This document shows, piece by piece, positions 14,801 through 63,670 of a stretch of 64,000 nt of DNA (positions are counted from its first letter, which is position 1; every line of letters starts with the position of its first letter). A program made the translations under genes and the position numbers. The DNA comes from Gammaproteobacteria bacterium. Its GTDB lineage: Bacteria; Pseudomonadota; Gammaproteobacteria; Burkholderiales; Nitrosomonadaceae. The notes beneath the pieces were generated by a model, which worked only from the letters and a program-made list of their open reading frames with translations, was not told where the DNA came from and did no database searches. Location: the NCBI GenBank assembly GCA_015709615.1, contig CP054179.1:278785-342784 (forward strand), in the 5' to 3' direction.

Positions 14801-17800
14801 GCGTTCCTTGTCTACGAGCGGCTCGTTACCGAATGGCGGATTGCCTATTACCACGTCGAAATATTCTGACGGAATATCGAAATCCTCAAATCCAGTGCTT
14901 TGCGCAATCTTGGCTTTTGGATACAGCGCCGCGGCTAACCGGCTGGTTAATGAGTCCAACTCTACACCGTGCAACTGCGATGAGTTACGCAAATCCTTCG
15001 GCATCAAACCAAAGAAATTACCAACACCTAATGATGGTTCCAGCAATCGGCCGCCATTGAACCCCAGGCGTTGCAGCGCCGAGTACATGGCGCCGACCGC
15101 TACCGGGCTGGTGTAATGCGCGTTTCTGGTGGATGCGCGAGCGGCTTTGTATTCTGAATCGGTGAGCAGTTCTTTCAGTTCGGCATGTTGTTTTTCCCAT
15201 GCCTTGTTTTCCGGATCAAACGGGCCTTTCATGGCTCCCCATCCGACGTACTTGGCGAGCGTTTTACGCTCTTGCGGAGTGGCTTTCCTGCCCTCGGTTT
15301 CCAGATTCTTGAGAAGCTTTATCGCATCGACATTATCGCGGTATTTCTTGGCAAGACCGCCCTTTCCAATTTCTTCAGCGTCAATCGAATGATCTTGCTC
15401 TACGCTTCCTCGTCCGGCTCCTCGCTCGGTGTCGGCGGCGCTTGCGTCAGCCCCATCACTTCGGCTTTCTCCCAGCTCGACAGGTGATTCAGGCTCGGAT
15501 CGCTGAGTGCTTTTCGCTCGTTTTCTTCCTGCACTGTCAGCGCTTCCAGATACTCCCCGGTCGCTATCAGTGCTTTCACCGTTTTCGGCCACCCCATTAT
15601 CCAGCGGTTTGCTATGTCCGTTGCCAGTGGCGGCATTTTCTGTATCGCCTGCATTATTTCCGGCGGATACGCTTTCGGTTGATATAGGGTTTGCATTCAC
15701 TACCTCCTGTGGTTTGGTAGTATCTTGTAACTGATCGGGTGTTTTTGCAACAGGATTTACTCTGTCGGCAACCTTCTCAACTTCTATGCTGGCTGCATTT
15801 GCCAGTTCTTGATCTGTCATGTTGACCGGCATCCAGCGGTTATTATCTCCGCCGGAAGGATCATTCTCTTTGGTAACGCGCATCATTACCGACACGCCAG
15901 ATTTAGTAGTTGGAACAGTGCCGCGTAAAGATGTTCCGCCGATATGAATGTATATGCCGCGCTGCTTTTCAGGGTTGAACATGGATAATGTCACGTCACC
16001 TGAAACAGCAATGCCGCCCTCGTTCACCGAAACCGGTTTAAGCGCTTTCCCATTTCTCGCGTGAGGCACAAACCCCGCCGCCGCTAGAGACTTCTGAACG
16101 CCTTCAAGGTATTTCTTTGTGTCGCTCAAAAATTGTCTTTTGACAACACCGCTAGCACCCTCGCCGGTTTCGTTGTCATAACCGTCTATGCTGGAAACAC
16201 CGTAATCATTTTTAAGAACCAAGTCTGTTTTCTTGCGCTCTTTGGTACGTTTCTTAGGCTTTTCAATCGTTCCAATGGCGATTTCATTACCTTCTGCTTG
16301 CTTGACGTGGCTTGCGGTTCCCTCTTTTTCCATAAGGTCTAGCTCTGCCGCCGTCGTCATGCCGGTAGTATCAAGCCCCGGATAATGCCGCGCAGCTTCG
16401 TAAAAACTGCGCAGGTACGGGCGCACCTTTTCACCCAGGTCATTAATCATGGCATCGGAATATTCCCCGAACGTCCTGAATCCAGACTCGATATAAGCGC
16501 CAGCCAGCGTTATGCCGTCCTGCAATAACTCAGGGTCAACGCCAGAATTGAGCGTATTTAGTTTTGATTTGAGGCGTGCGCGCGCAGCCGCTACCTTGGC
16601 CGCTGTGAAAATCTTGTTTTTGGCGAATTGCGCAGTGTCTTGTTGCTCGATTGCTACATCTGGCTCTTTTGGCGTTGCTGTCTCTGCTGTTCCCGGCGTT
16701 TCAGTTTGCTTGGTTTCATTGGCTTGAGTTGCATTGCTTATCTCCTTTTGTTTTGCGCGGCGCGCTTTGGATTCTTTCTCGGTTTTTGGCTTGTGTTCTT
16801 CTTTCTTGGTGGCCTTCTTCGTGCCGGTATCGGCAACAACTTTGCTGGTTGATTGCTCTGTGTTTATAGTGTCCTTGATTGGCTTCTTGCGTTCCTTGGC
16901 TTCGCGTTCAGTCTTTGGCTTTGATAGTGGCTTTTGGGTGTTCCCGTTTTGCGCCCACTGTTTGAAATCACTTGCCGACATTGCAGTGACACCGCGACGG
17001 CGTTGCGGTCCGCTACCATCAGAAAAATGCGCGTCATAAACTTTTTGCGCTTCTTCTTGCGTTGATACACCAACAACGGCCTTGTGCTCATCAAACTTGC
17101 CGTCATGGTTGAATTGGTCAAACACATAGACTGGTGAACCAGGAACCGGATTTTCAGGTACATACACGTCCACCTGATCGCCGTCGGCTCCTTCACTGCG
17201 CTTCAAGTAACCGTAATGAGCCGTCATATCGACAGACCACGGTTTGCCGTTTGGATCGGTACCGGATCGTTTTGAACCGGCAGGATTTTCGACGCTTATA
17301 TCCAGGCCATCAAAATTAAGGTGTCCTTTTTTATAGTTACCAGCCTGTTTTTGTGCTTCTGTCGGCTCCGGCCTATCGTTCTCCGGCGACGTTGCTGCCT
17401 CGTGCGCTGCAGCATTTACTTTATTGGCTACATCATGGTGCGCAGCTTCAACGTGCTGAATCGTTTCTTGAGCCTTTTCGATTTGGTCATTTACTCTGGA
17501 ATCGCCGGTTTCGCCGGTTTTTTTCGCCCGCTTCTCTGAAACTGTCACCAAGTTATCGGCTGCCTCACGATCCGATTTTTCCCGGTCACGGTTGCGCAAT
17601 TCTTCAGCGATAGCGTTTCTTACTCTGCCATCGTTGGCATTGCGCATTTGCTGGCGCAAGTCATCCTCGCTGCGATCTGCAACTGGCGCAGACTCTACCG
17701 GATTCAATTTCTTGACCGATTCCGGCTGCTTTTCTTCCGGCGTTTGTTGCGGGTTCAAGCCGTACAAGTCTTTAATGCCTGACACATTGCCGCGCATTGA

Positions 17801-31583: not shown

Positions 31584-31952
31584 CTAGGCGGGTGCCGTTT
31601 CTGGTGCTGGCTCAGGTGCAGGTGTAAATTCTGCGGCAGGTGCCGGTTCCGGTGCTGGGGCTGGCGCCTCATCAGGAATCTCAGCATCAGCAACATCCAA
31701 ATTCCCGATCAGACGATTAGCGGCTTCTGCGATTTGTGGAGAAACGTTATCAGCGTTTTCCACTGCCGTTTTCAGCATCCGTATTTCACTAACAATCTTC
31801 TCTGATTTCGCATTTGCGTCGTTCAGTTTGTCCAATAATTCTTGCTGATTCATAGCAATTTTCCTCAGTAAACGTTCCTGCCGTAGTAATACATTAATCA
31901 CAACGGCGGCAGTGACCGCTATGATTTGTTTCTTTCTGCTCTTTTCGCTCAT
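31584..31952 (-). CDS. membrane-anchored coiled-coil protein with Pro/Ala/Glu-rich tail (start uncertain)
   Basis: The 122-aa form has an N-terminal hydrophobic segment (IIAVTAAVVINVLL) and a GGGAG RBS. An alternative ATG at 31853 has a GAGGA RBS and gives 89 aa. Confidence 0.6.
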   Translation of the reverse strand: MSEKSRKKQIIAVTAAVVINVLLRQERLLRKIAMNQQELLDKLNDANAKSEKIVSEIRMLKTAVENADNVSPQIAEAANRLIGNLDVADAEIPDEAPAPAPEPAPAAEFTPAPEPAPETAPA

Positions 31953-44122: not shown

Positions 44123-44434
44123 ATGTTCATTTCAGTCAAAGAGCTCGCGGAACACAGAGGCGTAACGCCTAGAACAATCATAAGCTGGTGCCATAAGGGT
44201 TACTTCGATGGCGATGCCGTATTTCATAGCGGACGATGGATCATATTCATATCTGATTTTCTTCTAGTCTCTCTTCCAAAATTCAAATCTGGAAGGAAGC
44301 AAGGCGGCAAGAACAAAAAACCATACACCAGAAGATCCAGCACTGAACCAATCATCAAGCCACCTGAAGTTCAACCAGTTCGCGCACGATTACTACCACC
44401 CCGGGTGTCTCGGCGTAACGTTTCTTCTGCGTAG
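44123..44434 (+). CDS. MerR/excisionase-type HTH protein (extent uncertain)
   Basis: ISVKELAEHRGVTPRTIISWCHKGY. The only plus-strand ORF in this block, and its 3' part runs antisense into rusA. Confidence 0.45.
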   Translation: MFISVKELAEHRGVTPRTIISWCHKGYFDGDAVFHSGRWIIFISDFLLVSLPKFKSGRKQGGKNKKPYTRRSSTEPIIKPPEVQPVRARLLPPRVSRRNVSSA

Positions 44435-44792
44435 ATTCTACGACCTGCCCATCGTCGCGCCACACAACGCCATTCATGCCATCAAAAATGGATTTGGTGA
44501 TATTGTCGATGTCGCTTTTTTTCGTTGCGGCCAATTTTCCGGTAATAGCCAATAACTGTTTTTTCTTGGACCATGACGGCGGTATCTCTAAGCGGATGTC
44601 CAACTCAACCGATACTGCGCCGGTAATCATCTCCCTTCCGGACATTGCGAAGTGTGCTGAATGTGCTACCAAACCTTCATAGTTCGCCGTTTTCTCTGGC
44701 GTATACATGGCAATATGTTTGCCGCGCCTTGCTGCTTTGTGTCGCGCTTTCGGAACCGGTTGCCCTGGAACCGTAAAAATAATCTCGCCCAT
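44355..44792 (-). CDS. rusA: Holliday-junction resolvase RusA
   Basis: 145 aa. VPGQPVPKARHK..., DIDNITKSIFDGMNGVVWRDDGQV RusA signature. Confidence 0.9.
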   Translation of the reverse strand: MGEIIFTVPGQPVPKARHKAARRGKHIAMYTPEKTANYEGLVAHSAHFAMSGREMITGAVSVELDIRLEIPPSWSKKKQLLAITGKLAATKKSDIDNITKSIFDGMNGVVWRDDGQVVESTQKKRYAETPGVVVIVRELVELQVA

Positions 44793-44909: not shown

Positions 44910-45151
44910 TATTTCCCCTCCTTCATCTTCCATTGCCTGTTAACCTCTTCAATAAATTTTTTCGTGTTTTCTTCGCCGTGCTTTTCTGCGAACATTGCGT
45001 AATATCTTAATTTCCGCTCTTCTGGCCATACCATCACTTCACGCGCCTTCTCCTGGTATCTTTTCCGGTGGCGCTTCAGGCATTCTTGCTTGAATGATTC
45101 GGTGTATGTTGGCGCTGGCGTTTTTGTGCATTGCTCGCATTGGCATGGCAT
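44909..45151 (-). CDS. hypothetical protein
   Basis: 80-aa ORF, translationally coupled on both sides. Confidence 0.65.
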   Translation of the reverse strand: MPCQCEQCTKTPAPTYTESFKQECLKRHRKRYQEKAREVMVWPEERKLRYYAMFAEKHGEENTKKFIEEVNRQWKMKEGK

Positions 45152-45624
45152 TAAAAATCACCAGGAGCCACCTGCAAGCAAGTGATTCCTCTTCTTCTCC
45201 ACATATTTACCACTCTGTCACGATCATCGAAAACCGCAACAAGCCTTTTTTTATCATCTTCAAGCATATTGTCTAACCAGCTTTCCTTTAAAACATCATC
45301 CGGCGTGTAATCCATAGCTGGCCGCATTGTCAAAAGATGCTCGTAATTCAAATTGAATGACATGAATGCTGTGTGTTCAGCTATCCACGCCACTGTTTTG
45401 TCACGTACCTCTTCGCTTCTTCCGCTAAACAGCCACACATCAGCGCCAGATAGCATCAAGTTATTCATTATGAAAATTACTGGTTTATTTGGCTCATCCC
45501 TGTCGCAAGCAGCATAAAAATCACGCCATCTGTTAGGGTTATCTTTATCTTCAAGAATACTAACCCTATGATTTATAATCGCCAGTGTTCCATCAATATC
45601 AAATATGTACAGAGGTCTATTCAT
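45151..45624 (-). CDS. HAD-family phosphatase resembling phage polynucleotide 3'-phosphatase domains
   Basis: 157 aa. DIDGTL motif I at the N-terminus, FSGR, FDDRDRVVNMWRRRGITCLQV C-terminal motifs. Confidence 0.7.
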   Translation of the reverse strand: MNRPLYIFDIDGTLAIINHRVSILEDKDNPNRWRDFYAACDRDEPNKPVIFIMNNLMLSGADVWLFSGRSEEVRDKTVAWIAEHTAFMSFNLNYEHLLTMRPAMDYTPDDVLKESWLDNMLEDDKKRLVAVFDDRDRVVNMWRRRGITCLQVAPGDF

Positions 45625-46237: not shown

Positions 46238-46462
46238 TTAAAATGTTTCTGGTTTAGCTACAGAACGAATTGCCCACATAAAACCTTGCTGCAAGTTAGT
46301 TTTTCCCAGTGCTACATTACGTTTGTCGGTTGAGTCTATATCTTCCAATTTCTGTATAAATTGCCCGCATTGTTCTGCAAGCGCTTTGCCTTCATTAATC
46401 AGATCGATTTCTTCCTGAGTTAAATCTCTGTAACCTTTAATATGCTTATGCTGATTGTCCAT
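46238..46462 (-). CDS. small protein resembling the Acb2/Tad1-hairpin family (assignment from memory)
   Basis: 74 aa. GYRDLTQEEIDLINEGK...ALGKTNLQQGFMWAIRSVAKPETF pattern. GGAGAA RBS. Confidence 0.45.
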   Translation of the reverse strand: MDNQHKHIKGYRDLTQEEIDLINEGKALAEQCGQFIQKLEDIDSTDKRNVALGKTNLQQGFMWAIRSVAKPETF

Positions 46463-47130
46463 CTATCATTCTCCAAGTTATTAAATCCCAGGGCACTTAC
46501 GCGACCCTGGTTACGTTCATTGAATCCAGAAATTCATCTGGTTGTTAGTGGCCGGAGCTGTACATCTTTACCCGACATGTTTGCGTTACAAGGTAAGTTG
46601 CGATCTTTTCCTATCAAACGGAGGTTCCTTCTGCACGTCAGCTTAATCGTGCATTCACTAACAAGTCATATGCTCTAAAGGCGGAAAGCGGTTCCGGTAT
46701 CTTGGACAGTCCCAAAGTCACGTAGGGCATTGCGCCGACGTGCTGCCGGTGCGATCTTCTCGGCTTGTGACAAGAGCACATGCTTCTTAATGCTGCATTC
46801 ACTAACAATTAAGGCGGCTGGGCTTGATACCAGCTATGCCTAGTCTTATTGCTTGCAGCATCGAAACAAGCCGCTACCGCTTGTGATCATCTGCCGAGTG
46901 TCCTATCCACGCCGCGCCTTAATTGTTAGTCCTAGCTCTTACCCGGCTAGGTTAGGTGTTGATTTGAAGTTCCTATGATTTACTAAAGGGCTCTAGAACC
47001 TTTCGGGACTGCCCTGACTTTCATCATAGCCATCACCAACATAGAAACGGAATCACCCTGCGACTGCGAGCCAGTCAGTAATTCCATGTTGCTCGCTTCT
47101 ATGTTAGCTCTACATTAGGGCAGTAGACGC

Positions 47131-47265
47131 CTATTGTCTGTTAAAATAACAATCAGATAAACCGCTGAATACTAATAGAATCCCAAAAACTGGCCCCCCT
47201 ATACCTATAATCACAGATAGCATCCACCAAGCATCCTGAAATTTTTCCTTTTCTTTTATGTTCAT
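47131..47265 (-). CDS. 44-aa single-TM hydrophobic peptide
   Basis: Hand translation MNIKEKEKFQDAWWMLSVIIGIGGPVFGILLVFSGLSDCYFNRQ. Weak GAGAA RBS. Confidence 0.4.
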   Translation of the reverse strand: MNIKEKEKFQDAWWMLSVIIGIGGPVFGILLVFSGLSDCYFNRQ

Positions 47266-47338
47266 ATTGTGCGTTCTCTAAGATCAATTTTATTAATTAA
47301 TTAACAACATGTTAGCCATCCGTAACGTGGATGAGACG

Positions 47339-47384
47339 TGTTAGCCCTTGGAATCGAACCAAGCTACACCGGTGCGGTGCCGGT
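47339..47384 (-). other. tRNA-like 3'-half mimic (anticodon-like arm + variable + T arm + acceptor-like strand)
   Basis: Minus strand: ACCGG-CACCGCA-CCGGT GTAG CTTGG-TTCGATT-CCAAG GGCTAAC-A. No matching 5' acceptor strand or D arm. Confidence 0.5.
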
Positions 47385-47632
47385 CGTGTCACGCCAGATA
47401 CAACTTACTTAACTCGAGTATTTTCGTCGTACCCTCAACACTATCATCACCAGATTGATAGACTAACAAGTGATTGAGACTGATGTTGCAGCCTGGATTT
47501 GGACACCTTCCAACTCGGCACCAGGCCACAGAAGAAATCACCTTCTGTCTTGTCCTTTCCGTCGCTGATTAGGCGATCCGTAGAGGTTGGCTATTTCGCT
47601 CACAATCTCAATCCTTGTTAGTGCCTGATACC

Positions 47633-47860
47633 TCACAGGCTCTTTGTTAAACAAGTCTCACCAACTGGAAACCAAGGCGTATCTGAATCAGATAAAAAAT
47701 ATCGAACGCGATTATCGCCGTGGTATTCCTCCCATATTTCGATACCAAGAATTTTGCGTTTTCCAAAATCGACACCCTGCGGGTTTGTGTAATTAACTTC
47801 ATCTCCGATTGAGAACTTTGGATTAATCGCCGCTATCACTTTTTTTACTATCTTGATCAT
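47633..47860 (-). CDS. hypothetical protein
   Basis: 75-aa ORF. Confidence 0.65.
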   Translation of the reverse strand: MIKIVKKVIAAINPKFSIGDEVNYTNPQGVDFGKRKILGIEIWEEYHGDNRVRYFLSDSDTPWFPVGETCLTKSL

Positions 47861-47868: not shown

Positions 47869-48516
47869 CTATGCAACCTCAGTTTTATCAATCAATCGAA
47901 GATCAGGAACAGCTTTGCTTGCCTGCTGAAATCCGATCAGCGGCTTATCCGTTCCGCCGGTGATCACACGCTGGCATTTATCCGTGTCTCCAATCATCAC
48001 GAACGGTTCCAATTTCAAGCCTTTGCTGCTGTTGTAGGCATTGGCTATTCCGGTCAATACAGCCGGATATTCCGGAATTTCGCTACGTTCACGGAATCCC
48101 CGGTACCGGTTTTCAAATTCCTTCGCTACGAAAGGCCATTCATCCTCGTTTTTTTGTCCCAACGGTATCCATCCGCCCATGTCATGCAATACCCGGTGAA
48201 TCAGTGGATCATCGAAAACAACGTCGACGTAGCAGCCCTTGTGACGAACCGCTTTGTCGACCTTCGCCCAGGCGATCAATGCCGCGTCTTGCGTTGATCC
48301 TTGCAGCATGCGGATGATGTCGGCAGGCTTCGGTAACCACTTCCCGGATTCCGTGTTAACCACGTGCCGGCCGAATGCTTGCGTAATCGCCGCTAGGTCG
48401 TACTGTTTCAACGCATTCCACCAAAGATCGAGAGCAAAATCATTGATTTCTTTATCGTAAAAACTGTAAACACCTACCAAGCCATCATGGAATTTTTGAA
48501 AGTCATGTTCCGTCAT
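47869..48516 (-). CDS. replication accessory protein (helicase-loader-like)
   Basis: 215 aa immediately after, and overlapping, the initiator gene. The N-terminal region resembles G39P-type loader/inhibitor proteins from memory. Confidence 0.55.
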   Translation of the reverse strand: MTEHDFQKFHDGLVGVYSFYDKEINDFALDLWWNALKQYDLAAITQAFGRHVVNTESGKWLPKPADIIRMLQGSTQDAALIAWAKVDKAVRHKGCYVDVVFDDPLIHRVLHDMGGWIPLGQKNEDEWPFVAKEFENRYRGFRERSEIPEYPAVLTGIANAYNSSKGLKLEPFVMIGDTDKCQRVITGGTDKPLIGFQQASKAVPDLRLIDKTEVA

Positions 48517-49408
48517 TTTGTGCCCTCAGTTCGGGTGGTTTCCAATTCCTCGTCGATTCTTTGTTTCGATTCAAAAGCGCATCCGCCTTGTTTTGAATCG
48601 TGCCTTGCAGCACCTTGTCCTTTGCCTGAGCTGCTTCGGTGCGCTGGCCTTCCACGATGCCCAGGACGTACTTGAACCCCTTCTGCTTGTCCTTCGCGGT
48701 CCGTGCTGCGTGCATGAATTCGTCAATCGTTGCACCGGATTCGATCAGCATCAAAAGCTTAGGGTGTGCCGGGTTTAAATCGATAATTCCAACTTTTTTG
48801 AGTTCAAGACACACGCTTGCGCCCGGTGTTGGTTCCCTACTCTGTTGGGAGGGATAGACAGTGTGTGTTATTACAGTATCTTTGGAATCAGGAATCAGAG
48901 AATCAGGAATCAGAGAATCAGCAGGGCTTGCATGGTGCTGATCATGTGCTTGCACTGTGCTTGCACTGTGCTTGCATTGTGCTTGTTCAGTTTTTGTGCT
49001 TGATTCATTGTTAACCAATGACTTAACCAGTGAATACTCACCGGTTACCATGTCATTTTTACGCGTATTTACTTTGTAATATCCGTTCTCATCAGGCAAT
49101 ACGCTGTCTTGTTCTCTGCCGTGCGGATTTTGGTGTTCAAGAAACTGAGGAATACTTATTACTTTTTTGTTGTCTGCCGTATACCGTTTTATAAATCCTC
49201 GACACTCTAGCTCACCAAGCAACTCGTCAATGTCGATTGTGTCAGCAGGGAAAATTGCCATTTTTATTTTTTTCGGCCTATCCTCTAATCTACCTTCTCT
49301 GTCAGCTAGCATCCATAAACCTGGAAAAATCAGGCGCGCTGCATATGAGCATTCAACCAAATCCTCGTTTGTAAAAAACCCTGGCTTTATATTGCGAGCT
49401 CTAGCCAT
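48503..49408 (-). CDS. replication initiator (lambda O-like organisation)
   Basis: 301 aa. MARARNIKPGFFTNEDL N-terminus. Two families of tandem iterons sit in the central linker-coding part. Confidence 0.7.
   Translation of the reverse strand: MARARNIKPGFFTNEDLVECSYAARLIFPGLWMLADREGRLEDRPKKIKMAIFPADTIDIDELLGELECRGFIKRYTADNKKVISIPQFLEHQNPHGREQDSVLPDENGYYKVNTRKNDMVTGEYSLVKSLVNNESSTKTEQAQCKHSASTVQAHDQHHASPADSLIPDSLIPDSKDTVITHTVYPSQQSREPTPGASVCLELKKVGIIDLNPAHPKLLMLIESGATIDEFMHAARTAKDKQKGFKYVLGIVEGQRTEAAQAKDKVLQGTIQNKADALLNRNKESTRNWKPPELRAQNDGT
48886..49006. repeat. putative replication-origin iterons inside the initiator gene
   Basis: GAATCAG five times (48886-48922, alternating 7/8-nt spacing) and TGTGCTTGCAC-like 11-mers at 48946, 48957, 48968, 48979 and 48996. 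Confidence 0.65.
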
Positions 49409-49414: not shown

Positions 49415-50233
49415 TTACCAAAAAAAACAGCCAGCGGCAAAGGTGAGTAAGCCACTGGCTGTATAATGCGCACAGCGTGGTGCGCTGGTCCTCGTCATAA
49501 TCTGGCCAAATGACCAACCGGAACAGTTAGGGAATCCGGCTGGCCTTTGGGTTAAATTGCAATCACGTTTCAACACACCGACCAGCTTCGAGCTGATTCT
49601 GACACCGGACTCGGCCGGCGCACGCGATAAGTGGTTTCCTTTCATTAAAAGGAGGGCCGTACGAAATCTATTCATTTTTTTTGATTTTGGCTTCTCGTGC
49701 ATTGATTTGACCTTGCTCTTAAGTTCCATCAAGCTGGCAATGCACTGTTGAATATCATTCTCTGTTTGATTCAATTCCTCTGAATCAATGATTCCATCGT
49801 TTTCGAGAGCATTTTTTAGGTTGTTCGCTAAGATGCCTTTCTTGCTGATGATTTTTAATATCTGAGCAAGCAATGCATCATCATTAATATCATCGGAATC
49901 ACCTGGAATTCGATACGCCACATAACCGTGGCGCCACATAAACGACCTTATAGCCAGATCAACCATTTGATCGCGCCCGGAATCGGAGAGCAATTCAATG
50001 ATTTGAGATGCTTCCTCGTAATTCAGGTGATGAGAATCGACCGCGCGCCGAAGTTTTTTGTAAAGCACGTTGGGCGAAATCCCCATGCGTGCCGCTAAAG
50101 CTTCAACCCCACCAGGATAAGACCTGGCGGCGATATAAAGCGCATCGTGCTTATTCAATTCGTTGTATTTGCAAGTCATTGGCAAAACCTCTTTTCTATT
50201 GCCGTATTCATATAATGTTTTTCGTGCAAGCAT
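49415..50233 (-). CDS. CII-like phage regulatory protein (C-terminal ~85 codons doubtful)
   Basis: The N-terminal ~185 aa resemble CP76/CII-type regulators (ALYIAARSYPGGVEALAARMGISPNVLYKKL). The remainder is Cys/Trp/Arg-rich and runs through the terminator. The likely start is the ATG at 50179. Confidence 0.6.
   Translation of the reverse strand: MLARKTLYEYGNRKEVLPMTCKYNELNKHDALYIAARSYPGGVEALAARMGISPNVLYKKLRRAVDSHHLNYEEASQIIELLSDSGRDQMVDLAIRSFMWRHGYVAYRIPGDSDDINDDALLAQILKIISKKGILANNLKNALENDGIIDSEELNQTENDIQQCIASLMELKSKVKSMHEKPKSKKMNRFRTALLLMKGNHLSRAPAESGVRISSKLVGVLKRDCNLTQRPAGFPNCSGWSFGQIMTRTSAPRCAHYTASGLLTFAAGCFFW
49421..49461 (-). terminator. strong intrinsic terminator immediately upstream of the initiator gene
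   Basis: Minus strand: CAGCCAGTGG-14 nt-CCGCTGGCTG followed by TTTTTTT, 12 nt before the ATG at 49408. Confidence 0.7.
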
Positions 50234-52593: not shown

Positions 52594-52678
52594 TCCCAAG
52601 GCTACCTCCTTAAGCCGTGCACTCGGTGGGGCCTGTGGAATCCAGGCGAACGAATCAACTAACAGCGTGAGGTAAGAG

Positions 52679-53334: not shown

Positions 53335-53500
53335 GCAACTATCCAATGCTGACCATGCTTTCAAACATGGTGTTGCAGCATATGACAATGGCTGCCCAAT
53401 AAGCAGCAATCCGTACGATAGAGAGCATGAAACAGAATTGTTCGTTTCATGGCTGGACGGATGGCGGCATGAACGAAATTATTATGAGGGGGAATTGTGA
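53327..53500 (+). CDS. Rmf/CrpP-fold-like small protein
   Basis: 57 aa by hand translation. GVAAYDNGCPISSNPY...FVSWLDGW pattern. GTGA coupling to the exonuclease gene. Confidence 0.45.
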   Translation: MTKQLSNADHAFKHGVAAYDNGCPISSNPYDREHETELFVSWLDGWRHERNYYEGEL

Positions 53501-54471
53501 ACGCACAAATTGAAGAAGTTTTGGAGATGGATCGCCGGACATACATCGGCGGCAGCGATGTTGCGGCTATTCTTGGCGTATCGCCGTGGAAGTCAAAATT
53601 TGCGCTGTATCAGCAAAAAATAAGTGAATGGCAGGATGAAATTACGCCACAGAAAGAACGGATTTTTGCTCGCGGCAAGCGCTGGGAACCGGTCGTAATG
53701 GAAATGCTGATCGATGAGCTGGAGGATCGCGGCCATGAGGTTCGTGTAGTGGCGCGAAACAACCGGATTAAAGACATCGATCATGATTTCATCGCGGCAG
53801 AAATCGATATGGAATTAATGGTTGATGGCGAATTGATCAACGGTGAAATGAAAACCGTACACCCGTTCGCTGCGAAAGATTGGGGAGAGCCTGGAACCGA
53901 TGAAATACCGATTTACTACACGGCACAAGTGCTACACGGGCAGATGGTGGCACGCAGGAGCAAAACCGTTGTTGCTGCGCTGATTGGTGCCGACGACCTG
54001 AGGGTTCACTTCGTCAATCGTGACGAAGAGATGATCAACATTATCCGGAACGCTGAAGTTGAGTTCTGGAACATGGTGCAAAACCGTATTTCGCCTGATC
54101 CGGTGACTATCGATGACATTAACCGGTTATACCGGATCGACTCGGGGAAAATCATTGAGGCTGATACAGAGTTGTTTACGCTATACACCGAGCTGGTGCA
54201 TGTAAATGAAGATTTGAAAGCCAATGATGCGCACGCTGAAACGCTTAAATCACGCATCAAGGCACGAATGGGTGAAGCGGCATTGTTGATGCATAACGGG
54301 CAAAAGCTGGTGTCGTGGAAAACTAACAAGGAAAGCAGCAAAACTGATTGGAAGCAAGCATTTAATTTCGCGTTCTCATCTCCAGAATTTGCACAAGGAT
54401 TAGGAAGAGATGAAGTTATAAAAAGATTCACTGACACAAAACCCGGCGCAAGACCATTTTTGTTGAAATAA
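53497..54471 (+). CDS. YqaJ-type viral recombinase exonuclease
   Basis: 324 aa. RTYIGGSDVAAILGVSPWKSKFALY and PD-(D/E)xK-like core. Precedes recT. Confidence 0.88.
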   Translation: MNAQIEEVLEMDRRTYIGGSDVAAILGVSPWKSKFALYQQKISEWQDEITPQKERIFARGKRWEPVVMEMLIDELEDRGHEVRVVARNNRIKDIDHDFIAAEIDMELMVDGELINGEMKTVHPFAAKDWGEPGTDEIPIYYTAQVLHGQMVARRSKTVVAALIGADDLRVHFVNRDEEMINIIRNAEVEFWNMVQNRISPDPVTIDDINRLYRIDSGKIIEADTELFTLYTELVHVNEDLKANDAHAETLKSRIKARMGEAALLMHNGQKLVSWKTNKESSKTDWKQAFNFAFSSPEFAQGLGRDEVIKRFTDTKPGARPFLLK

Positions 54472-54485
54472 ATTAAGGAAAAATC

Positions 54486-55439
54486 ATGAGTACAGCAGCA
54501 TTAAAAACAGCAGTTAAAGGCGAAGTTTTAGACAAACCAAAAGACATCGGTGAGTTATCGAAATTTCTGGCAGGACGCCTTGGACAAATAAAATCGGTTG
54601 TAGCAAGCAATGTAACACCTGAAAAAATGGCCCGGATTGCGCTGAACGAATTACGCAGCAATTCCTATCTGGCAAAAATAGCATTGCAGAACCCTGCAAG
54701 CTTTGTGAATGCTGTCCTGCAAGCCTCTCACCTAGGACTTGAAATTGGTGGAGCGCTTGGCCAAGCGTATCTTGTCCCATACAAGGGCGAAATAAAAATG
54801 ATGCCTGGGTATCGCGGACTTATATCGCTATCCAGAAGATCGGGAGAGATCAGCAACATCAATGCCTATGTTGTGTACGAGCATGATGAGTTTGACATGG
54901 AACTCGGGCTTGAAATCAAAGTACGCCACAAGCCAAAAATTACAGGTGCGCGCGGAGAACCAGTACTGGTTTACATGATTGCTCACTTTAAGGATGGCGG
55001 AAATCACTTTGAATGGATGACCATCGATGAGGTTATGAGCATTAAGGCGCGTAGTTCTGCGGTGAAATCTGGCGGACAAACACCGTGGGACACTGACCGC
55101 GATGAAATGATTAAAAAAACCGTAATCCGTCGCGGCTGGAAGTATCTTCCAATGTCGATTGAAATGATGAATCTTGAGAAGATCGAAGCAGCAACAGAGC
55201 AAGATAAAAACGTAATTATTGACGGAGATTCTTTCATTATCGATGGATCAACAGGCGAAATAGTTGAAACAAAACCAACCGACGAACCAAAGCAAATCAC
55301 ACACGATCAGCCAATTGTAACCGGCGAAATACCTTCGGAGGAAGAGCAGGAAGCCATTAAGCGGAAATTGATCGCCGAAGCAGAAGCAGAAAAAGCAGCG
55401 GGCGATAAAAAATCAAAGCAAAGTTTTAACGTGGAGTGA
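54486..55439 (+). CDS. recT: RecT single-strand annealing protein
   Basis: 317 aa. LQASHLGLEIGGALGQAYLVPYKGEIKMMPGYRGL typical of RecT. Confidence 0.88.
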   Translation: MSTAALKTAVKGEVLDKPKDIGELSKFLAGRLGQIKSVVASNVTPEKMARIALNELRSNSYLAKIALQNPASFVNAVLQASHLGLEIGGALGQAYLVPYKGEIKMMPGYRGLISLSRRSGEISNINAYVVYEHDEFDMELGLEIKVRHKPKITGARGEPVLVYMIAHFKDGGNHFEWMTIDEVMSIKARSSAVKSGGQTPWDTDRDEMIKKTVIRRGWKYLPMSIEMMNLEKIEAATEQDKNVIIDGDSFIIDGSTGEIVETKPTDEPKQITHDQPIVTGEIPSEEEQEAIKRKLIAEAEAEKAAGDKKSKQSFNVE

Positions 55440-55445
55440 TCTACC

Positions 55446-56198
55446 GTGAGCATGCAACAACAAAACAAACTGCTTCAATGGTTCGGAATATGCCCACCTG
55501 GATTTTCTCCTGATGTAAAATCAGTCTCGCGCAAAGGTAACTGCATCATAGAAGATCGACTGAAGCCAACACGGGATTTAAGAAAAGATATTCAGGCAAA
55601 GATAGAGAGCGGAATTGTCGGGCGCGGAATTATTTACAAAGAGCTTTTGAAAGAAGGGAAAATTCCGGTTAAAGACGGCAAGCCAATGGAAATAAAAGCA
55701 TTCGGATTGCATCTTGCAAAGGTAATTAAAAAACTGGAAGAAACGCGCAATTTTGACAAAAATTCACTTCCGTCTGGGAAAAAAGCAAAAGAAATATTGA
55801 GGCTATTTGATAGCGGAGTTTCAGAAATCGACATTATGCATGTTCACGGATTCGCGCGATGCACCACTTACGCAACCCTTGTTAAATTTGGACGAATCAA
55901 GAAAAGAAATCATGCAAACAGCATCAGAAAAGACCGGCAAAAAATGCCTAAAATAACTCAAATGCTTAAAGATGGCCGCAATATAACTGACATTTGCAAT
56001 CAGTTGGGCACATCAAGGAAATACGTTAACGATGTGATCAGGTATCGCAGAAAAGCGTTCAGATTGCTCGAAAACGAATCAGCGAAAAACGCTCTCGAGC
56101 TTTGCCAGCTTATTCCGCTAAGCAATGTATATGCTGAGTCATTGATAAGAGAATTCCTGGAGCTAAAAAATGAGCCAGCAAGTACAAGACCTGTTTGA
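55446..56198 (+). CDS. hypothetical protein with two Hin-like HTH motifs
   Basis: 250 aa. ILRLFDSGVSEIDIMHVHGFARCTTY and MLKDGRNITDICNQLGTSRKYV. Confidence 0.6.
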   Translation: MSMQQQNKLLQWFGICPPGFSPDVKSVSRKGNCIIEDRLKPTRDLRKDIQAKIESGIVGRGIIYKELLKEGKIPVKDGKPMEIKAFGLHLAKVIKKLEETRNFDKNSLPSGKKAKEILRLFDSGVSEIDIMHVHGFARCTTYATLVKFGRIKKRNHANSIRKDRQKMPKITQMLKDGRNITDICNQLGTSRKYVNDVIRYRRKAFRLLENESAKNALELCQLIPLSNVYAESLIREFLELKNEPASTRPV

Positions 56199-56370
56199 TG
56201 ATGAGGCGGAATTTCAGGAATTACTAGATACCGCAAAAAATAATGCAGCAAACGATTGGGAGGAAAATTTCATTGCACAGCAAATAGACAAATTCTCGCA
56301 GTTTGGGCGGCGGATGTATTTATCGGACTTGCAGCTTGAGCACATAAACCGCATTGCCGGTGATCAGTAA
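56170..56370 (+). CDS. hypothetical protein
   Basis: 66-aa acidic ORF. Confidence 0.55.
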   Translation: MSQQVQDLFDDEAEFQELLDTAKNNAANDWEENFIAQQIDKFSQFGRRMYLSDLQLEHINRIAGDQ

Positions 56371-56403
56371 CGATAGATTACAACTTAACAAGGACAAAGA
56401 ATC

Positions 56404-57447
56404 ATGAAAAATTTAACGATATTTAGCAATCATCCAAGTTGGATACCAGATTTTAGCTTGCTCGATAAAAATTTATCGATACCAGGAAAGCTTGGTTATT
56501 CGTGGAAAGTTTTACGTGATGGTTTGCCATACATCAGAATTGGAGAAAACATTATTTTGACGTGTGAGCTACAGAAAAAGCTGATACCGGCTCAGGTAGT
56601 AGCTGATGAAGTCAAGAAAAGATTAGCAGAATTAAAAAAAGAACAAGGTTTCAAGCCAGGTAAGAAGCAAGCGCAAGACGTAAAAGAAGCAATTCTCATC
56701 AAACTGCATGAACAAGCATTTGTGACGAGTAAGTTGATAAATGTATGGATAAACGAAAAGCACAAAACGTTATGCGTTGAATCAACTAGCAAAGGTTTGG
56801 TTGACGATGTAATTAAACGTTTGGTAAGGGATATTGAATATCACGGCAAACCAATCGAAGTTAGTAATAGTGTGATTGGTTTTATGCGCAAGATTATCTT
56901 AGATGATCATGCGATGGCAGGATCAATACTCAGAATCGGAAGCAATCTTGTGTTGCAAGATGATGAGAACAAAAAGCAGATTAGCTATAAAAATGAAGAT
57001 ATTGTGACTGAAGAAATAAAAAATCATTTATTCCAAGGGAAAACTCCAAAAAGAATAGAACTTGAAATAATGAGGAAATGCGTTTCTTTTGAAATTGATG
57101 AGAACCTTATCATCAGCAAAATCAATATTGATGACGTAAAAATCGAAAGATCAGATTATGAAAATGAAGATGATTATTTTGATTCGTTATTTGCGATGCA
57201 TTCGGCTCAATGCATGGAAATAATCACATCGCTTTTGGATGTTTTGGGTGAAGTTGATCAATTCCAAGAAGCAGAAACAACCGAAGAGGAAATGCAGCAA
57301 TCGTATGAAGATGGTTACTTAGCAGCGGCGCAAGGCAAGCAGAAAAGTGATTGCCCTATCATCCGCTCGGAATTGGTTGCTGAATGGGTGCGCGGCTTTG
57401 ATACGTGGCATGAAGAAAACCAAGCCACACAGGAAGAGGTTGCTTAA
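56404..57447 (+). CDS. rdgC: RdgC-like recombination-associated protein
   Basis: 347 aa, collinear with E. coli RdgC in the central region (KKLIPAQVV...RLAELKKEQGFKPGKKQ...). Confidence 0.75.
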   Translation: MKNLTIFSNHPSWIPDFSLLDKNLSIPGKLGYSWKVLRDGLPYIRIGENIILTCELQKKLIPAQVVADEVKKRLAELKKEQGFKPGKKQAQDVKEAILIKLHEQAFVTSKLINVWINEKHKTLCVESTSKGLVDDVIKRLVRDIEYHGKPIEVSNSVIGFMRKIILDDHAMAGSILRIGSNLVLQDDENKKQISYKNEDIVTEEIKNHLFQGKTPKRIELEIMRKCVSFEIDENLIISKINIDDVKIERSDYENEDDYFDSLFAMHSAQCMEIITSLLDVLGEVDQFQEAETTEEEMQQSYEDGYLAAAQGKQKSDCPIIRSELVAEWVRGFDTWHEENQATQEEVA

Positions 57448-63091: not shown

Positions 63092-63670
63092 ATGAGAGTT
63101 TGCGGCATATATATGATTAAGCATGTCCAATCAGGAAAGATGTATATCGGTCAATCACGGAATATTTCTAAAAGATGGAATGATCACCTCCGTTACGGGA
63201 ATTCCCGCATCGGAAAAGCGATAAGGAAGTACGGGAAAGAACGATTTTATTTTGAGGTTTTAGAATTGTGTCATCCGAATGATCTTAACGACAAAGAAAT
63301 TTACTACATAGGTAAATTTGATTCTGTCAGGAATGGCTACAACATATTGCCTGGTGGCGGACAGTTCGATATGCCGGAATCTGTGAAGATCAGAATAGGG
63401 AATTCCCAAAGAAAACGATACGCCAAAAGACCGCCAAAGTGCTTTGTTACGTTTTCAGGTGGAAAGCAAAATGCTATGCCATTAAACGTCAGGCCAAAAA
63501 TTCTCAGTACCGATCAAGTAGTGTTTTCAGATTACCAAGCAAGAATAATAATCGATCATATGTTTAAGCCACATTATCGAGATAACAAGATTGGTGCTGA
63601 ACTTTGGAATATCGATGGCGCTGACAAGGAAATGGTTATAAACGCACTATTCAGATCACAACTAGCTTAG
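63092..63670 (+). CDS. GIY-YIG nuclease (free-standing homing-endonuclease-like)
   Basis: 192 aa. CGIYMIKHVQSGKMYIGQS...R...H, NGYNILPGG motifs. Confidence 0.8.
   Translation: MRVCGIYMIKHVQSGKMYIGQSRNISKRWNDHLRYGNSRIGKAIRKYGKERFYFEVLELCHPNDLNDKEIYYIGKFDSVRNGYNILPGGGQFDMPESVKIRIGNSQRKRYAKRPPKCFVTFSGGKQNAMPLNVRPKILSTDQVVFSDYQARIIIDHMFKPHYRDNKIGAELWNIDGADKEMVINALFRSQLA

What the first reader, a model, noticed from the sequence alone, without database searches (positions are those of the whole stretch)
46542..47622. Three independent long-range helices are closed by the same sequence (CACTAACAA / TTGTTAGTG), and the TGTTAG/CTAACA hexamer occurs nine times
The closing stems of three otherwise unrelated domains share the core ACTAACAA(G/T) paired with its complement. 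The pairs are 46542/46656, 46800/46922 and 47462/47614. TGTTAG also occurs at 47102, 47310 and 47339. That gives nine occurrences of the hexamer or its complement in 1170 nt, where I estimate about 0.6 by chance. RNA structure alone does not require identical stem sequences. The sharing therefore suggests sequence-specific recognition of a stem by a protein, a nuclease or a guide-like pairing. The alternative is a set of DNA-level inverted repeats, such as invertible segments or recombinase or regulator binding sites. The interiors of the three domains are not similar, so recent duplication is unlikely. ACTAACA also appears once at 52659-52665, just upstream of the early-left ORF, and CACTAACAAT appears at 31787-31796. 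Either of these may be coincidence.
Basis: seen in the sequence. Interest (0 to 1): 0.7.

Follow-up and report, generated by a model that had tools for sequence, protein, structure and literature searches.

The report
Modular small-RNA array in Nitrosomonas prophage
The repeated CACTAACAA/TTGTTAGTG sequence is real: it forms the shared end-helix of a chain of hairpin and tRNA-like small RNA modules in a 1.1-kb untranslated stretch of a Nitrosomonas prophage, a conserved but undescribed RNA family whose modules are swapped between related phages at exactly this sequence.

Summary
Nine TGTTAG/CTAACA hexamers lie within 1.08 kb. No more than 5 occurred in any of 500 shuffles, and Poisson P is about 2e-12.

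The region (46470-47630) lies between the replication genes and an Acb2/Tad1-like gene of a lambdoid/P22-like prophage. Read on the minus strand, which is the gene direction, it is a chain of modules:
- four long hairpins, U1-U4;
- two supported tRNA-like cloverleaf elements, T1 and T2, plus a tentative third, T3.

Every hexamer is a helix arm. Each TTGTTAG strand can pair with either an upstream or a downstream CTAACA, so one strand serves two competing helices. That sharing largely explains why all the stems carry the same sequence.

About 20 related metagenomic phage contigs carry the same grammar. Helices show compensatory changes and minus-strand G.U pairs. Module bodies occur as discrete, unalignable alleles between identical ends. 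In two relatives, bona fide two-piece tmRNA genes sit in the array in the same orientation.

I found no inversion, no recombinase and no consistently linked protein. A Nitrosomonas CRISPR spacer matches 46631-46664 exactly.

Most likely this is a stable-RNA island. The common helix would be an acceptor-stem-like processing signal and also a recombination joint. Function is untested and there is no Rfam match.

The parts
47623..47640 (-). Small hairpin GCCUG-N8-CAGGC directly abutting the first CUAACA arm, in the 'T-arm position'. It overlaps the stop codon of the 75-aa ORF.
   Evidence: Sequence; fold. The equivalent hairpins in relatives covary (GCCUG/CAGGC, CCCAG/CUGGG, CCCCG/CGGGG, CCUAGC/GCUAGG). 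25 of 46 CUAAC sites have such an abutting hairpin, against 24% of control positions.
47461..47623 (-). It is closed by ACUAACAAG-GAUUGAGAUUG / CAGUCUCAAUC-A-CUUGUUAGU.
   Evidence: MFE -63.2 kcal/mol, z = -5.1, 0 of 200 shuffles fold as well. The same stem with different bodies occurs in L012, L074, L097 and L103.
47339..47468 (-). T1: a tRNA-like cloverleaf. Its features:
- acceptor-like stem GUUAGUC/GGCUAAC followed by A;
- a D-like arm;
- a 5-bp stem carrying a 39-nt inserted hairpin with the conserved loop GAAAAUACUCGAGUUAAGUA;
- a 7-nt loop CUGGCGU;
- an extra hairpin;
- a canonical T arm, CUUGG-UUCGAUU-CCAAG.
Its 5' strand is also the 3' arm of U1.
   Evidence: Fold. ARAGORN with the intron option calls 47467-47338 tRNA-Ala(GGC) i(32,39). 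An alignment with the L111 variant gives 37 pairs, 5 of them with double compensatory changes, and many G.U pairs. It is not called by default ARAGORN or by Rfam.
47308..47346 (-). Two copies of GGCUAACA(C/U)G flanking the hairpin CAUCCACGUUACGGAUG. The first copy is the T1 3' strand. The second is a module joint: in L097 it leads directly into a U3-type module.
   Evidence: D9; L097/L106 comparison.
47131..47265 (-). A 44-aa hydrophobic ORF cassette inside the array.
   Evidence: No family match. Weak promoter-like CTAACA-17-TAAAAT upstream.
47036..47107 (-). U2: a 72-nt hairpin module closed by GCUAACAUAGAAGCG / CGUUUCUAUGUUGGUG. The pairing needs U.G on the minus strand, which would be C.A on the plus strand.
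   Evidence: I7; MFE -32.4 kcal/mol, z = -4.96, 0 of 200 shuffles.
46925..47040 (-). T3 (tentative): GUUGGUG ... [hairpin CCUAGC-N9-GCUAGG] ACUAAC. This is a possible third tRNA-like closure using the U2 3' arm and the U3 5' arm.
   Evidence: Read from the sequence and the fold. No sequence variation was available to test it.
46800..46931 (-). Two internal hairpins have conserved loops, GAAGGA and UAUCAAGC. The central body is variable.
   Evidence: I1; z = -3.1. Eight distinct alleles share the scaffold, with compensatory changes GCGUG/CACGC<->GCGUU/AACGC and GCUGG/CCAGC<->CCGG/CCGG<->GCUGA/UCAGC.
46656..46792 (-). U4: a hairpin module closed by AUUAAGAAGCAUGUGCUC / GAGCAUAUGACUUGUUAG.
   Evidence: MFE -46.8 kcal/mol, z = -2.5. 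The L109 homologue has the intact CUAAGAAG arm. Pairing needs G.U on the minus strand.
46542..46664 (-). Its features:
- acceptor-like helix UUGUUAGUG/CACUAACAA;
- 2 nt;
- hairpin UGCACG-N10-CGUGCA;
- a variable body;
- a 5-bp hairpin abutting the 3' strand.
Its 5' strand is also the 3' arm of U4.
   Evidence: 33 pairs; 7 with double compensatory changes, 2 of them in the closing helix. The covariance model R1 finds one full-length copy in every family locus and none in controls.
46631..46664 (.). Protospacer: 34/34 identical to spacer 25 of the CRISPR array of Nitrosomonas sp. MAG CP45.
46488..46541 (-). Two leader hairpins (CCAGAUGAAUUUCUGG and CCAGGGUCGCGUAAGUGCCCUGG) between T2 and the Acb2/Tad1-like gene. 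They travel with that gene in L109-L111.

Best explanation
The 1.1-kb untranslated stretch is a phage stable-RNA island transcribed on the window's minus strand together with the flanking genes.

Structure. It is a chain of modules: long hairpins (U1-U4) alternating with tRNA-shaped elements (T1, T2, perhaps T3). The repeated sequence is the terminal helix of every module. CUAAC(A/G)A is a 5' hairpin arm and also the 3' acceptor-like strand of the preceding tRNA-like element. UGUUAG is a 3' hairpin arm and also the 5' acceptor-like strand of the following tRNA-like element.

Why the stems are identical. Each strand must be able to pair with two neighbours, so the same sequence is propagated along the whole chain. 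This part is shown at the sequence and covariation level.

Inferred function. The common 7-9-bp helix, stacked on a T-arm-like hairpin, would act as a universal acceptor-stem-like punctuation signal. Host RNase P would use it, and RNase III would cut the 16-22-bp hairpin stems. Together they would cut the long untranslated transcript into individual small RNAs and separate it from the flanking mRNAs, as happens for tRNA and tmRNA precursors.

Second role. The same conserved sequences serve as joints at which whole modules are exchanged between related phages by homologous recombination (RNA bodies, tmRNA genes, small ORF or lysis cassettes). This phage encodes RecT and YqaJ.

Unknown. What the individual small RNAs do. 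Their position next to Acb2/Tad1-like, PNKP and RtcB genes suggests a role in translation, RNA repair or counter-defence.
For: - Motif clustering is far beyond chance.
- All nine hexamers are arms of predicted helices.
- The minus strand folds better than the plus strand (-373.6 vs -337.2 kcal/mol).
- Helices need G.U on the minus strand, which would be A.C on the plus strand (10 G.U vs 3 A.C).
- The canonical T arm GGUUCGAUUCC and the ARAGORN intron-mode tRNA call occur only on the minus strand.
- Bona fide permuted tmRNA genes sit in the same arrays, in the same orientation, in L089 and L109.
- T2 closing helix covaries: GUUAGUG/CACUAAC, GUUGGUG/CGCCAAC, GUUGGUU/AACCAAC, with 7 of 33 pairs compensatory.
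- T1 has 5 of 37 pairs compensatory, with its loop conserved.
- U3 internal hairpins show compensatory changes.
- In U helices, CCAAG pairs with UUGG in 4 units, against CUAA with UUAG elsewhere (read).
- In every locus T2 is immediately preceded by a hairpin that shares the CUUGUUAGUG strand.
- The two competing closures are close in energy: -66.6 vs -68.0 and -97.4 vs -90.1 kcal/mol.
- Hairpins abut the motif about twice as often as at control positions.
- Model R1 finds one T2 per family locus and none in controls.
- Ends are identical while bodies are discrete, unalignable alleles.
- Homology breakpoints fall at the motif: 139 of 385 vs 31 expected.
- RecT and YqaJ are present in the phage.
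- No linked recombinase or partner protein was found.
Against: - There are no expression or RNA-end data.
- No Rfam family matches, even at E<=10.
- T1 and T2 do not fold significantly better than shuffles (z = -1.3 and -1.5).
- T1 is called a tRNA only with the intron option, and its L111 variant is not called at all.
- The covariation rests on 2-4 related sequences per element.
- U3 and U4 abut with only an 8-nt linker, so the hairpin / tRNA-like alternation is not strict.
- For U1-T1 the hairpin closure is 7 kcal/mol more stable than the tRNA-like closure, so T1 may need prior cleavage in order to form.
- RNase P or RNase III cleavage is pure inference.
- Breakpoints at the motif fit a DNA-level recombination site equally well, and the breakpoint count is inflated by paralogous hits.
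Confidence: 0.55

Rival explanations
1. An integron-like or other site-specific DNA recombination system. The hairpins are attC-like folded single-stranded DNA sites (CTAAC...GTTAG resembles the R''/R' boxes). A recombinase uses them to insert and excise cassettes.
For: - The core CTAAC/GTTAG, with the conserved AAC/GTT triplets, has attC-like polarity in U1-U4.
- Ends are conserved and centres variable.
- ORF, lysozyme and tmRNA cassettes sit between the sites.
- Indels between loci are bounded by direct copies of the motif, for example L102 vs L104 and L074 vs the window.
- Breakpoints are enriched at the motif.
- A constant G.G mismatch sits at the G of G|TT in many units.
Against: - No integrase or recombinase appears among about 140 neighbouring ORFs, and no protein is consistently linked.
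- The stems are continuous, near-perfect 14-22-bp helices. They lack the unpaired central spacer and extrahelical bases that define attC.
- The flanks of the boxes do not fit RYYYAAC/GTTRRRY.
- Breakpoints are not confined to G|TT; in L098 the joint lies after ATTAAGG.
- Internal hairpins have conserved loops, there is a canonical T loop, and the array is co-oriented with tmRNA genes. These all point to RNA.
- T1 and T2 use the motif in the opposite polarity, which attC never does.
Confidence: 0.1
2. A cis/trans antisense control system like P4 CI RNA or P1/P7 C4 RNA. A processed tRNA-like RNA carrying UGUUAG pairs with the CUAACA copies on nascent transcripts, upstream and downstream of it and ahead of cassette ORFs. 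This terminates or silences expression of downstream (late or accessory) genes.
For: - The arrangement target - antisense - target (CUAACA ... UGUUAG ... CUAACA) is the same as seqA-seqB-seqC of P4 (established knowledge).
- The most conserved 34 nt of the family is the UGUUAG-bearing 5' end of T2.
- Solo CUAACA copies lie 15-45 nt upstream of cassette ORFs in the window, L012 and L074.
- The arrays sit at the early/late boundary: before the terminase in L089 and before the capsid gene in L109.
Against: - Complementarity at the solo sites is only 6-7 nt and does not cover ribosome-binding sites.
- There is no Rfam C4 hit.
- No intrinsic terminators follow the modules on the minus strand.
- The UGUUAG strand is predicted to be paired intramolecularly in either state.
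Confidence: 0.12
3. Double-stranded DNA binding sites for a phage regulator, replication initiator (iterons/origin) or terminase. Alternatively, inverted repeats flanking invertible segments (shufflon-like).
For: - There are nine copies in both orientations within 1.1 kb, immediately downstream of the replication initiator and helicase-loader genes.
- The order of orientations resembles a shufflon.
Against: - Eleven phages with 72-88% identical replication genes lack the array.
- The arrays occur in unrelated gene contexts.
- No inverted homologous segment is found between 16 arrays, and there is no invertase.
- Partner arms covary within one array (CCAA with UUGG, CUAA with UUAG). A common protein site would not do this.
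- The strand asymmetry of G.U pairs is unexplained by duplex DNA sites.
Confidence: 0.04
4. Selfish palindromic repeat elements (MITE-, REP- or Correia-like) that have piled up in an intergenic hotspot. They would have no RNA function beyond incidental mRNA stabilisation.
For: - The units are 60-180-nt palindromic elements with conserved termini, stacked in tandem in an accessory region.
- Their number differs between near-identical phages.
Against: - Only the terminal 9-16 nt are shared between units, not the whole element.
- No dispersed copies occur elsewhere in the 64-kb window.
- The exact 20-mer anchor occurs in none of 185,579 representative genomes except as a CRISPR spacer.
- Internal hairpins keep their loops and covary.
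- The tRNA-like elements and tmRNA genes are part of the same grammar.
Confidence: 0.06

Closest known systems
Phage tRNA/tmRNA gene clusters and tRNA-like stable RNAs, for example the T4 tRNA cluster with its species 1 and 2 RNAs, and tRNA genes downstream of the late promoter in lambdoid Stx phages (from established knowledge). A phage-borne two-piece tmRNA is reported for an OM43 methylophage (PMC9004378, seen in the listing).
   Same: An untranslated cluster of structured RNAs inside a phage operon near the early/late boundary. Elements have acceptor-like terminal stems and T-arm-like hairpins. Relatives carry real tmRNA genes in the same slots.
   Different: The elements are not detectable tRNAs. 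All share one terminal helix sequence. Hairpins alternate with tRNA-like elements on shared strands. Bodies occur as discrete interchangeable alleles.
P4 CI RNA and P1/P7 C4 antisense RNAs (Rfam C4 family). These are tRNA-like, RNase P-processed immunity RNAs flanked by copies of their own target sequence.
   Same: One sequence lies between two copies of its complement on the same transcript. The RNA has a cloverleaf-like shape. RNase P processing is plausible.
   Different: No Rfam match. The complementary sequence forms the terminal stem rather than lying in exposed loops. The modules are many and tandem. The solo sites show only 6-9 nt of complementarity.
Integron attC sites and CALIN arrays.
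   Same: CTAAC...GTTAG inverted core, conserved ends with a variable centre, tandem arrangement with cassettes between sites, and all in one orientation.
   Different: No unpaired spacer or extrahelical bases, no integrase, imprecise joints, opposite-polarity helices (T1, T2), and RNA-type features (T loop, conserved hairpin loops).
tRNA punctuation of polycistronic transcripts (mitochondria), and RNase P / RNase III processing of bacterial and T7 polycistronic RNAs.
   Same: Repeated structured elements between functional units could define cleavage points. 16-22-bp stems suit RNase III. An acceptor helix stacked on a T-stem suits RNase P.
   Different: Here the punctuation marks share one sequence and compete for strands. 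Processing is not demonstrated.
Mobile regulatory cassettes (promoter-early stem-loops, PeSL) that mediate modular shuffling in T4-type phages (from memory: Arbiol, Comeau and Krisch 2010).
   Same: Short conserved stem-loop-containing sequences flank variable cassettes in a hyperplastic region and coincide with recombination joints.
   Different: PeSLs are promoter plus small stem-loop units flanking ORFs. Here the conserved sequences close large structured RNA bodies and tRNA-like elements.

Membership tests
tRNA (Rfam RF00005 / ARAGORN) | Match to the tRNA covariance model, or a default ARAGORN call. | tested here: not met
   There is no hit in 46300-47800 even at E<=10. Default ARAGORN finds only tRNA-Lys at 5449.
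tRNA (Rfam RF00005 / ARAGORN) | Cloverleaf with a 7-bp acceptor stem, D arm, 5-bp anticodon stem with 7-nt loop, and a T arm with a UUCGAnn loop. | tested here: inconclusive
   T1 has the acceptor stem, a D-like arm and a canonical T arm, plus a 7-nt loop CUGGCGU. However, a 39-nt hairpin is inserted at position 32. ARAGORN calls it only with the intron option and does not call the L111 variant. T2 has the shape but no T-loop consensus.
Two-piece (permuted) tmRNA, Rfam RF01850/RF04321 | Covariance-model match with a tag reading frame. | tested here: not met
   The window has no match. Relatives L089 (127.9 and 136 bits; tag ANDEVYDNRLAA) and L109 (103.8 and 118 bits; tag ADYNAFELKAA) do match, inside the same kind of array.
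Integron attC site | R''=RYYYAAC and R'=GTTRRRY boxes in 5'-R''...R'-3' polarity. | tested here: inconclusive
   The core CTAAC/GTTAG and the polarity fit for U1-U4. The flanking R/Y positions do not fit (CACTAAC, GTTAGTG). Many units have CTAAG. T1 and T2 have the reverse polarity.
Integron attC site | Unpaired central spacer and extrahelical bases between the R and L boxes. | tested here: not met
   The closing stems are continuous for 14-22 bp, with at most one mismatch.
Integron attC site | An integron integrase nearby (or an array of ORF cassettes each ending in an attC). | tested here: not met
   No tyrosine recombinase appears in the Pfam scans of about 140 neighbouring ORFs. The window ends before the prophage's own integrase, so a distant one is not excluded. 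Most 'cassettes' hold no ORF.
Invertible DNA segment / shufflon | The same segment is found in both orientations in a population. | tested here: not met
   There are no inverted homologous hits between 16 arrays, apart from one self-palindrome.
Invertible DNA segment / shufflon | A dedicated invertase or recombinase gene adjacent. | tested here: not met
C4 / CI antisense RNA (P1, P7, P4) | Match to the Rfam C4 model. | tested here: not met
   No match at E<=1-10 in the window or in 14 related loci.
C4 / CI antisense RNA (P1, P7, P4) | An antisense segment flanked by two copies of its target on one transcript, with RNase P processing. | tested here: inconclusive
   The CUAACA-UGUUAG-CUAACA arrangement is present. 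Processing and trans pairing cannot be tested with these tools.
Replication origin iterons of the adjacent initiator | Co-inheritance with the initiator gene. | tested here: not met
   L001-L011 have homologous rep/DUF6475 genes but no array. The arrays also occur without these genes.
Intrinsic terminators | A GC-rich hairpin followed by a U tract on the transcribed strand. | tested here: not met
   No terminator-like site falls at the modules on the minus strand. The arms are followed by GAAUGCA, not by U runs.
MITE / REP-type dispersed repeat | Many dispersed, full-length similar copies in the genome. | tested here: not met
   The motif is not enriched outside the array. Model R1 has a single hit in the window. 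The 20-mer anchor is absent from representative genomes except as a CRISPR spacer.

The most novel reading that the evidence does not exclude
The array is an RNA-level cassette system. A constant, tRNA-like or hairpin scaffold with one universal terminal helix presents interchangeable bodies, and phages swap these bodies as discrete alleles. The bodies would act as decoys or sponges for host nucleases that target tRNA, tmRNA or the acceptor stem, or as guides. The shared helix would be both the processing signal and the recombination joint. In effect this would be an RNA analogue of an integron inside a counter-defence island.
Probability: 0.15. Interest if true: 0.85.

Novelty: new variant of a known kind. 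Interest (0 to 1): 0.6.

Why it matters
- It would add an undescribed family of phage small RNAs, with no Rfam match, in viruses of ammonia-oxidising Nitrosomonas. These bacteria are a key group in wastewater treatment and the nitrogen cycle, and their phages are little known.
- The architecture is unusual. Hairpins alternate with tRNA-shaped elements, and neighbouring elements compete for the same strand. This gives a simple structural reason why many helices carry one sequence.
- Discrete, unalignable body alleles between identical ends point to rapid modular exchange of RNA genes. Real two-piece tmRNA genes occupy equivalent slots. Both features are typical of arms-race loci.
- The neighbours are Acb2/Tad1-like, Tad2-like, PNKP and RtcB genes. 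This makes testable the idea that phages deploy tRNA-like RNAs as counter-defence or translation-rescue tools.

Tried and rejected
- Chance clustering: rejected.
- Known RNA families: none found in the window or in 14 related loci, apart from tmRNA in L089 and L109.
- Ordinary tRNA genes: not called.
- GenBank phages: no similarity to the array. Only the Acb2-like gene matches Pseudomonas and Vibrio phages.
- Plus-strand RNA: disfavoured, because the fold is weaker and the mismatches are A.C.
- Origin or iterons of the adjacent initiator: rejected, because relatives with the same replication genes lack the array.
- Invertible segments: no inverted homology.
- Integron: no integrase, and the stem anatomy is wrong.
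- Promoters or terminators: nothing beyond chance (6 promoter-like sites vs 8.7 expected; no minus-strand terminators at the modules).
- Guide or antisense targets: the module bodies and the T1 loop have no complementary site in the window or in any fetched locus.
- Dedicated partner protein: no ORF family is linked to more than 6 of 18 arrays.
- The 15-mer scan of viral contigs gave 77 loci, almost all of them chance hits in coding sequence. The pattern AACAAGYGATTGAGACT gave four chance hits.
- A T7/T3-type promoter reading of TCACTAA, and a boxA reading of UAACAA, were considered from memory and dropped for lack of the other conserved positions.
Full report
**1. Observation**

The hexamer TGTTAG/CTAACA occurs 21 times in the 64-kb window, where 18 are expected. 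Nine of those copies lie between 46543 and 47621. In 500 dinucleotide-preserving shuffles, no 1.1-kb stretch held more than 5. Against the background rate, the Poisson probability of nine is 1.8e-12.

The isolated copies at 31787 and 52659 have no partner and fit chance.
- The first pair is 5'-TTGTTAGTG...CACTAACAA-3'. The other two are 5'-CACTAACAA...TTGTTAGTG-3'. This difference in topology holds on either strand.
- Two more helices of the second kind were missed: 46656/46792 and 47036/47107.
- The 'solo' hexamers also turn out to be helix strands.

**2. Context**

Window 1-5400 is host DNA, with CysN/C-like and sugar-nucleotide enzyme genes. A tRNA-Lys at 5449-5524 marks the junction with a lambdoid/P22-like prophage.

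On the minus strand the gene order is:
- cII-like gene, 49415-50233
- replication initiator, 48503-49408
- DUF6475/helicase-loader-like gene, 47869-48516
- a 75-aa ORF, 47633-47860
- about 1.15 kb with no convincing gene except a 44-aa hydrophobic ORF
- an Acb2/Tad1-hairpin protein, 46238-46462
- PNKP-type phosphatase, 45151-45624
- RusA, 44355-44792
- terminase and portal genes

The divergent plus-strand operon holds a CI-like repressor, YqaJ, RecT and RdgC.

**3. Anatomy on the minus strand**

The minus strand folds better than the plus strand, -373.6 against -337.2 kcal/mol. Read 5' to 3' on the minus strand, the region is a chain of modules:
- a small hairpin, 47640-47623
- U1, 47623-47461, a 163-nt hairpin (z = -5.1)
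- T1, 47468-47339
- a hairpin between two GGCUAACA(C/U)G copies
- the 44-aa ORF
- U2, 47107-47036 (z = -5.0)
- a possible T3
- U3, 46931-46800 (z = -3.1)
- U4, 46792-46656 (z = -2.5)
- T2, 46664-46542

T1 folds as a cloverleaf. It has a 7-bp acceptor-like stem (GUUAGUC/GGCUAAC, then A), a D-like arm, an extra hairpin and a textbook T arm (CUUGG-UUCGAUU-CCAAG). With its intron option, ARAGORN calls it tRNA-Ala(GGC) with a 39-nt insertion. Default ARAGORN and Rfam do not call it. I therefore describe it only as tRNA-like.

T2 has the same layout. It has a 9-bp terminal helix, 2 nt, a hairpin in the D-arm position, a variable body, and a 5-bp hairpin abutting the 3' strand.

The key point concerns shared strands. 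The 5' strand of T1 is the 3' arm of U1. The 5' strand of T2 is the 3' arm of U4. So each UGUUAG strand can pair with the CUAACA upstream, closing a hairpin, or with the CUAACA downstream, closing a tRNA-like element. The two states are close in energy: U4/T2 gives -66.6 vs -68.0 kcal/mol, and U1/T1 gives -97.4 vs -90.1. In a chain where every strand must fit two neighbours, all helices must carry the same sequence.

**4. Related sequences**

GenBank phages contain nothing similar. Eleven IMG/VR phages with 62-88% identical DUF6475/rep genes lack the array, so it is not the origin or an operator set of those genes.

Related arrays were recovered in two ways:
- Exact-word scans with conserved pieces found viral contigs L012, L074, L089 and L090 and eleven metagenome contigs L096-L106.
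- Look-ups of the Acb2-like and 75-aa proteins found L107-L119. Several of these are identical to the window. Others (L109, L110, L111) have rearranged arrays.

All of them show the same grammar. Hairpins are closed by CUAA(C/G)AAG...CUUGUUAG. T2 is always the last element, and it is always preceded by a hairpin sharing CUUGUUAGUGAAUGCA. Small hairpins abut the CUAAC strands at 25 of 46 sites, against 24% of control positions. A covariance model of T2 (R1) finds exactly one full-length copy per family locus, two in L097/L106. It finds none in 18 control loci or elsewhere in the window.

**5. Evidence that the helices are selected, and on which strand**

- The T2 closing helix occurs as GUUAGUG/CACUAAC, GUUGGUG/CGCCAAC and GUUGGUU/AACCAAC.
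- In RNAalifold, 7 of 33 T2 pairs have double compensatory changes.
- T1 in L111 has a completely different 8-bp stem (CGCAUAGG/CCUGUGUG vs GGUACGAC/GUUGUAUC) and a different D-arm stem, around an unchanged 20-nt loop. Five of 37 pairs are compensatory.
- U3-type modules keep two internal hairpins with conserved loops and compensated stems.
- Within a single array (L097), CCAA arms pair with UUGG arms and CUAA arms with UUAG arms. This argues for pairing, not mere homogenisation.
- Mismatches are G.U on the minus strand (10) rather than A.C (3). T1 has at least 7 G.U pairs.
- L089 and L109 carry bona fide permuted betaproteobacterial tmRNA genes inside their arrays, in the same orientation (RF01850 at 127.9 and 103.8 bits; tags ANDEVYDNRLAA and ADYNAFELKAA).

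Together these show a single-stranded, minus-sense, most probably RNA-level structure. The caveats are small sample sizes and related sequences. The fold z-scores of T1 and T2 alone are also unimpressive, at -1.3 and -1.5.

**6. Modularity**

Between phages, the ends of a module can be 100% identical over 19-53 nt while the body is unalignable. T2 has at least five body alleles and U3 at least seven. Each allele is stable across several contigs, and none matches anything else in the held sequence.

Whole modules come and go between direct copies of the motif:
- L102 vs L104.
- L074 joins T2 directly to a U1-type hairpin.
- L089 and L102 join T2 to a U3-type hairpin.
- L111 replaces U1.

ORF cassettes sit in the same slots, including a lysozyme with small partner ORFs in L012 and the tmRNA genes. 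Homology breakpoints fall within 4 nt of the motif 139 times out of 385, against 31 expected. This figure is inflated by paralogous hits.

The joints are not always at the same nucleotide; in L098 the joint lies after ATTAAGG. That fits homologous exchange on short conserved sequences better than a precise site-specific cut. The phage encodes RecT and YqaJ.

**7. DNA-level rivals**

- No segment is inverted between any two of 16 arrays.
- No integrase, invertase or transposase appears in Pfam scans of about 140 flanking ORFs.
- No ORF family accompanies more than 6 of 18 arrays.
- The CTAAC...GTTAG core recalls integron attC R boxes. However, the stems lack the unpaired spacer and extrahelical bases, the box flanks do not fit, and T1 and T2 use the reverse polarity.
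- No promoter or terminator signal exceeds chance.

**8. Host**

The only hit to the 20-mer anchor among 185,579 representative genomes is a spacer in a 44-repeat CRISPR array of Nitrosomonas sp. MAG CP45. That spacer is 34/34 identical to window 46631-46664. At least eight other spacers of the same array hit other contigs of this phage family. The phages therefore infect Nitrosomonas, and the invariant 5' end of T2 is a target for host immunity.

**9. Interpretation**

Shown:
- The region is a conserved, modular array of structured, minus-sense elements.
- The motif is their common terminal helix.
- Strands are shared between neighbouring helices.
- Modules are exchanged at the motif.

Inferred:
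- The helix stacked on a T-arm-like hairpin acts as an acceptor-stem-like punctuation signal for host RNase P. RNase III would cut the 16-22-bp hairpin stems. This would release the small RNAs and free the shared strand for the tRNA-like fold.
- The absence of any linked phage protein favours host enzymes.
- The neighbourhood holds Acb2/Tad1-like, Tad2-like, PNKP and RtcB genes, and relatives carry tmRNA genes. This suggests a role in translation rescue, RNA repair or counter-defence, but that is speculation.

A P4/P1-type antisense circuit and an integron-like DNA system remain possible at lower probability.

**10. Novelty and score**

No Rfam family matches, and two literature searches surfaced no description of such arrays. 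Phage clusters of tRNA, tmRNA and tRNA-like RNAs are a known kind of feature. The shared-strand chain, the single universal helix and the discrete body alleles are new variants on it. I score interest at 0.6: the family is real, conserved and unusual, but its function is unknown.

Noticed in passing
window 5822-19786 (-): A 4,654-aa ORF at the prophage end next to tRNA-Lys. It is a 'polyvalent' multidomain protein carrying SLT transglycosylase, InPase, Eco57I-type methylase, ResIII/Helicase_C and ART-PolyVal domains. It is probably an injected counter-defence protein.
   Followed up: partly
L089 3426-3751; L109 256-670: Phage-borne permuted (two-piece) betaproteobacterial tmRNA genes with tags ANDEVYDNRLAA and ADYNAFELKAA. 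They sit inside the same kind of RNA array.
   Followed up: yes
L095 2760-5878 (Nitrosomonas sp. MAG CP45, NZ_QPHG01000014.1): A CRISPR array with 44 repeats (GTTTCAATCCTCGCCCGGCTTTGGAGCCGGGCGCTAC). At least 9 of its 43 spacers match this phage family. Spacer 25 equals window 46631-46664.
   Followed up: yes
window 46238-46462 (-), 45151-45624 (-); L074 7398-8612; L110/L111: Counter-defence and RNA-repair genes cluster around the arrays: Acb2/Tad1-hairpin proteins (two copies in L110/L111), a PNKP-type phosphatase, RtcB ligase in L074, and a Tad2-like protein in one relative.
   Followed up: partly
window 47131-47265 (-): A 44-aa hydrophobic ORF (MNIKEKEKFQDAWWMLSVIIGIGGPVFGILLVFSGLSDCYFNRQ) inside the RNA array, with no family match. 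A CTAACA-17-TAAAAT promoter-like site lies upstream.
   Followed up: partly
window 46765-46779 (-); L109 homologue: The U4 body contains UGCUCUUGUCACAAG (UGCUCUUAUUACAAG in L109). From memory this resembles the rrn/lambda boxA antitermination element UGCUCUUUAACAA. It was not tested, and it lies within a predicted stem.
   Followed up: no
L074 4657-4745 (minus strand of the locus): The body of the U1-type hairpin in L074 looks like a decayed tRNA, with a D-arm-like GCGGUAGAG, a loop CUUGGGUA and GGGUUCGAUCCCC. ARAGORN and Rfam do not call it.
   Followed up: partly
L012 1674-2412: A lysis cassette (a lysozyme of 144 aa plus two ORFs of about 50 aa) sits between two RNA modules of the array.
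   Followed up: partly
window 53497-57447 (+), 63092-63670 (+): The early-left operon carries YqaJ exonuclease, RecT, RdgC and an AAA_23 protein, plus a free-standing GIY-YIG endonuclease.
   Followed up: no
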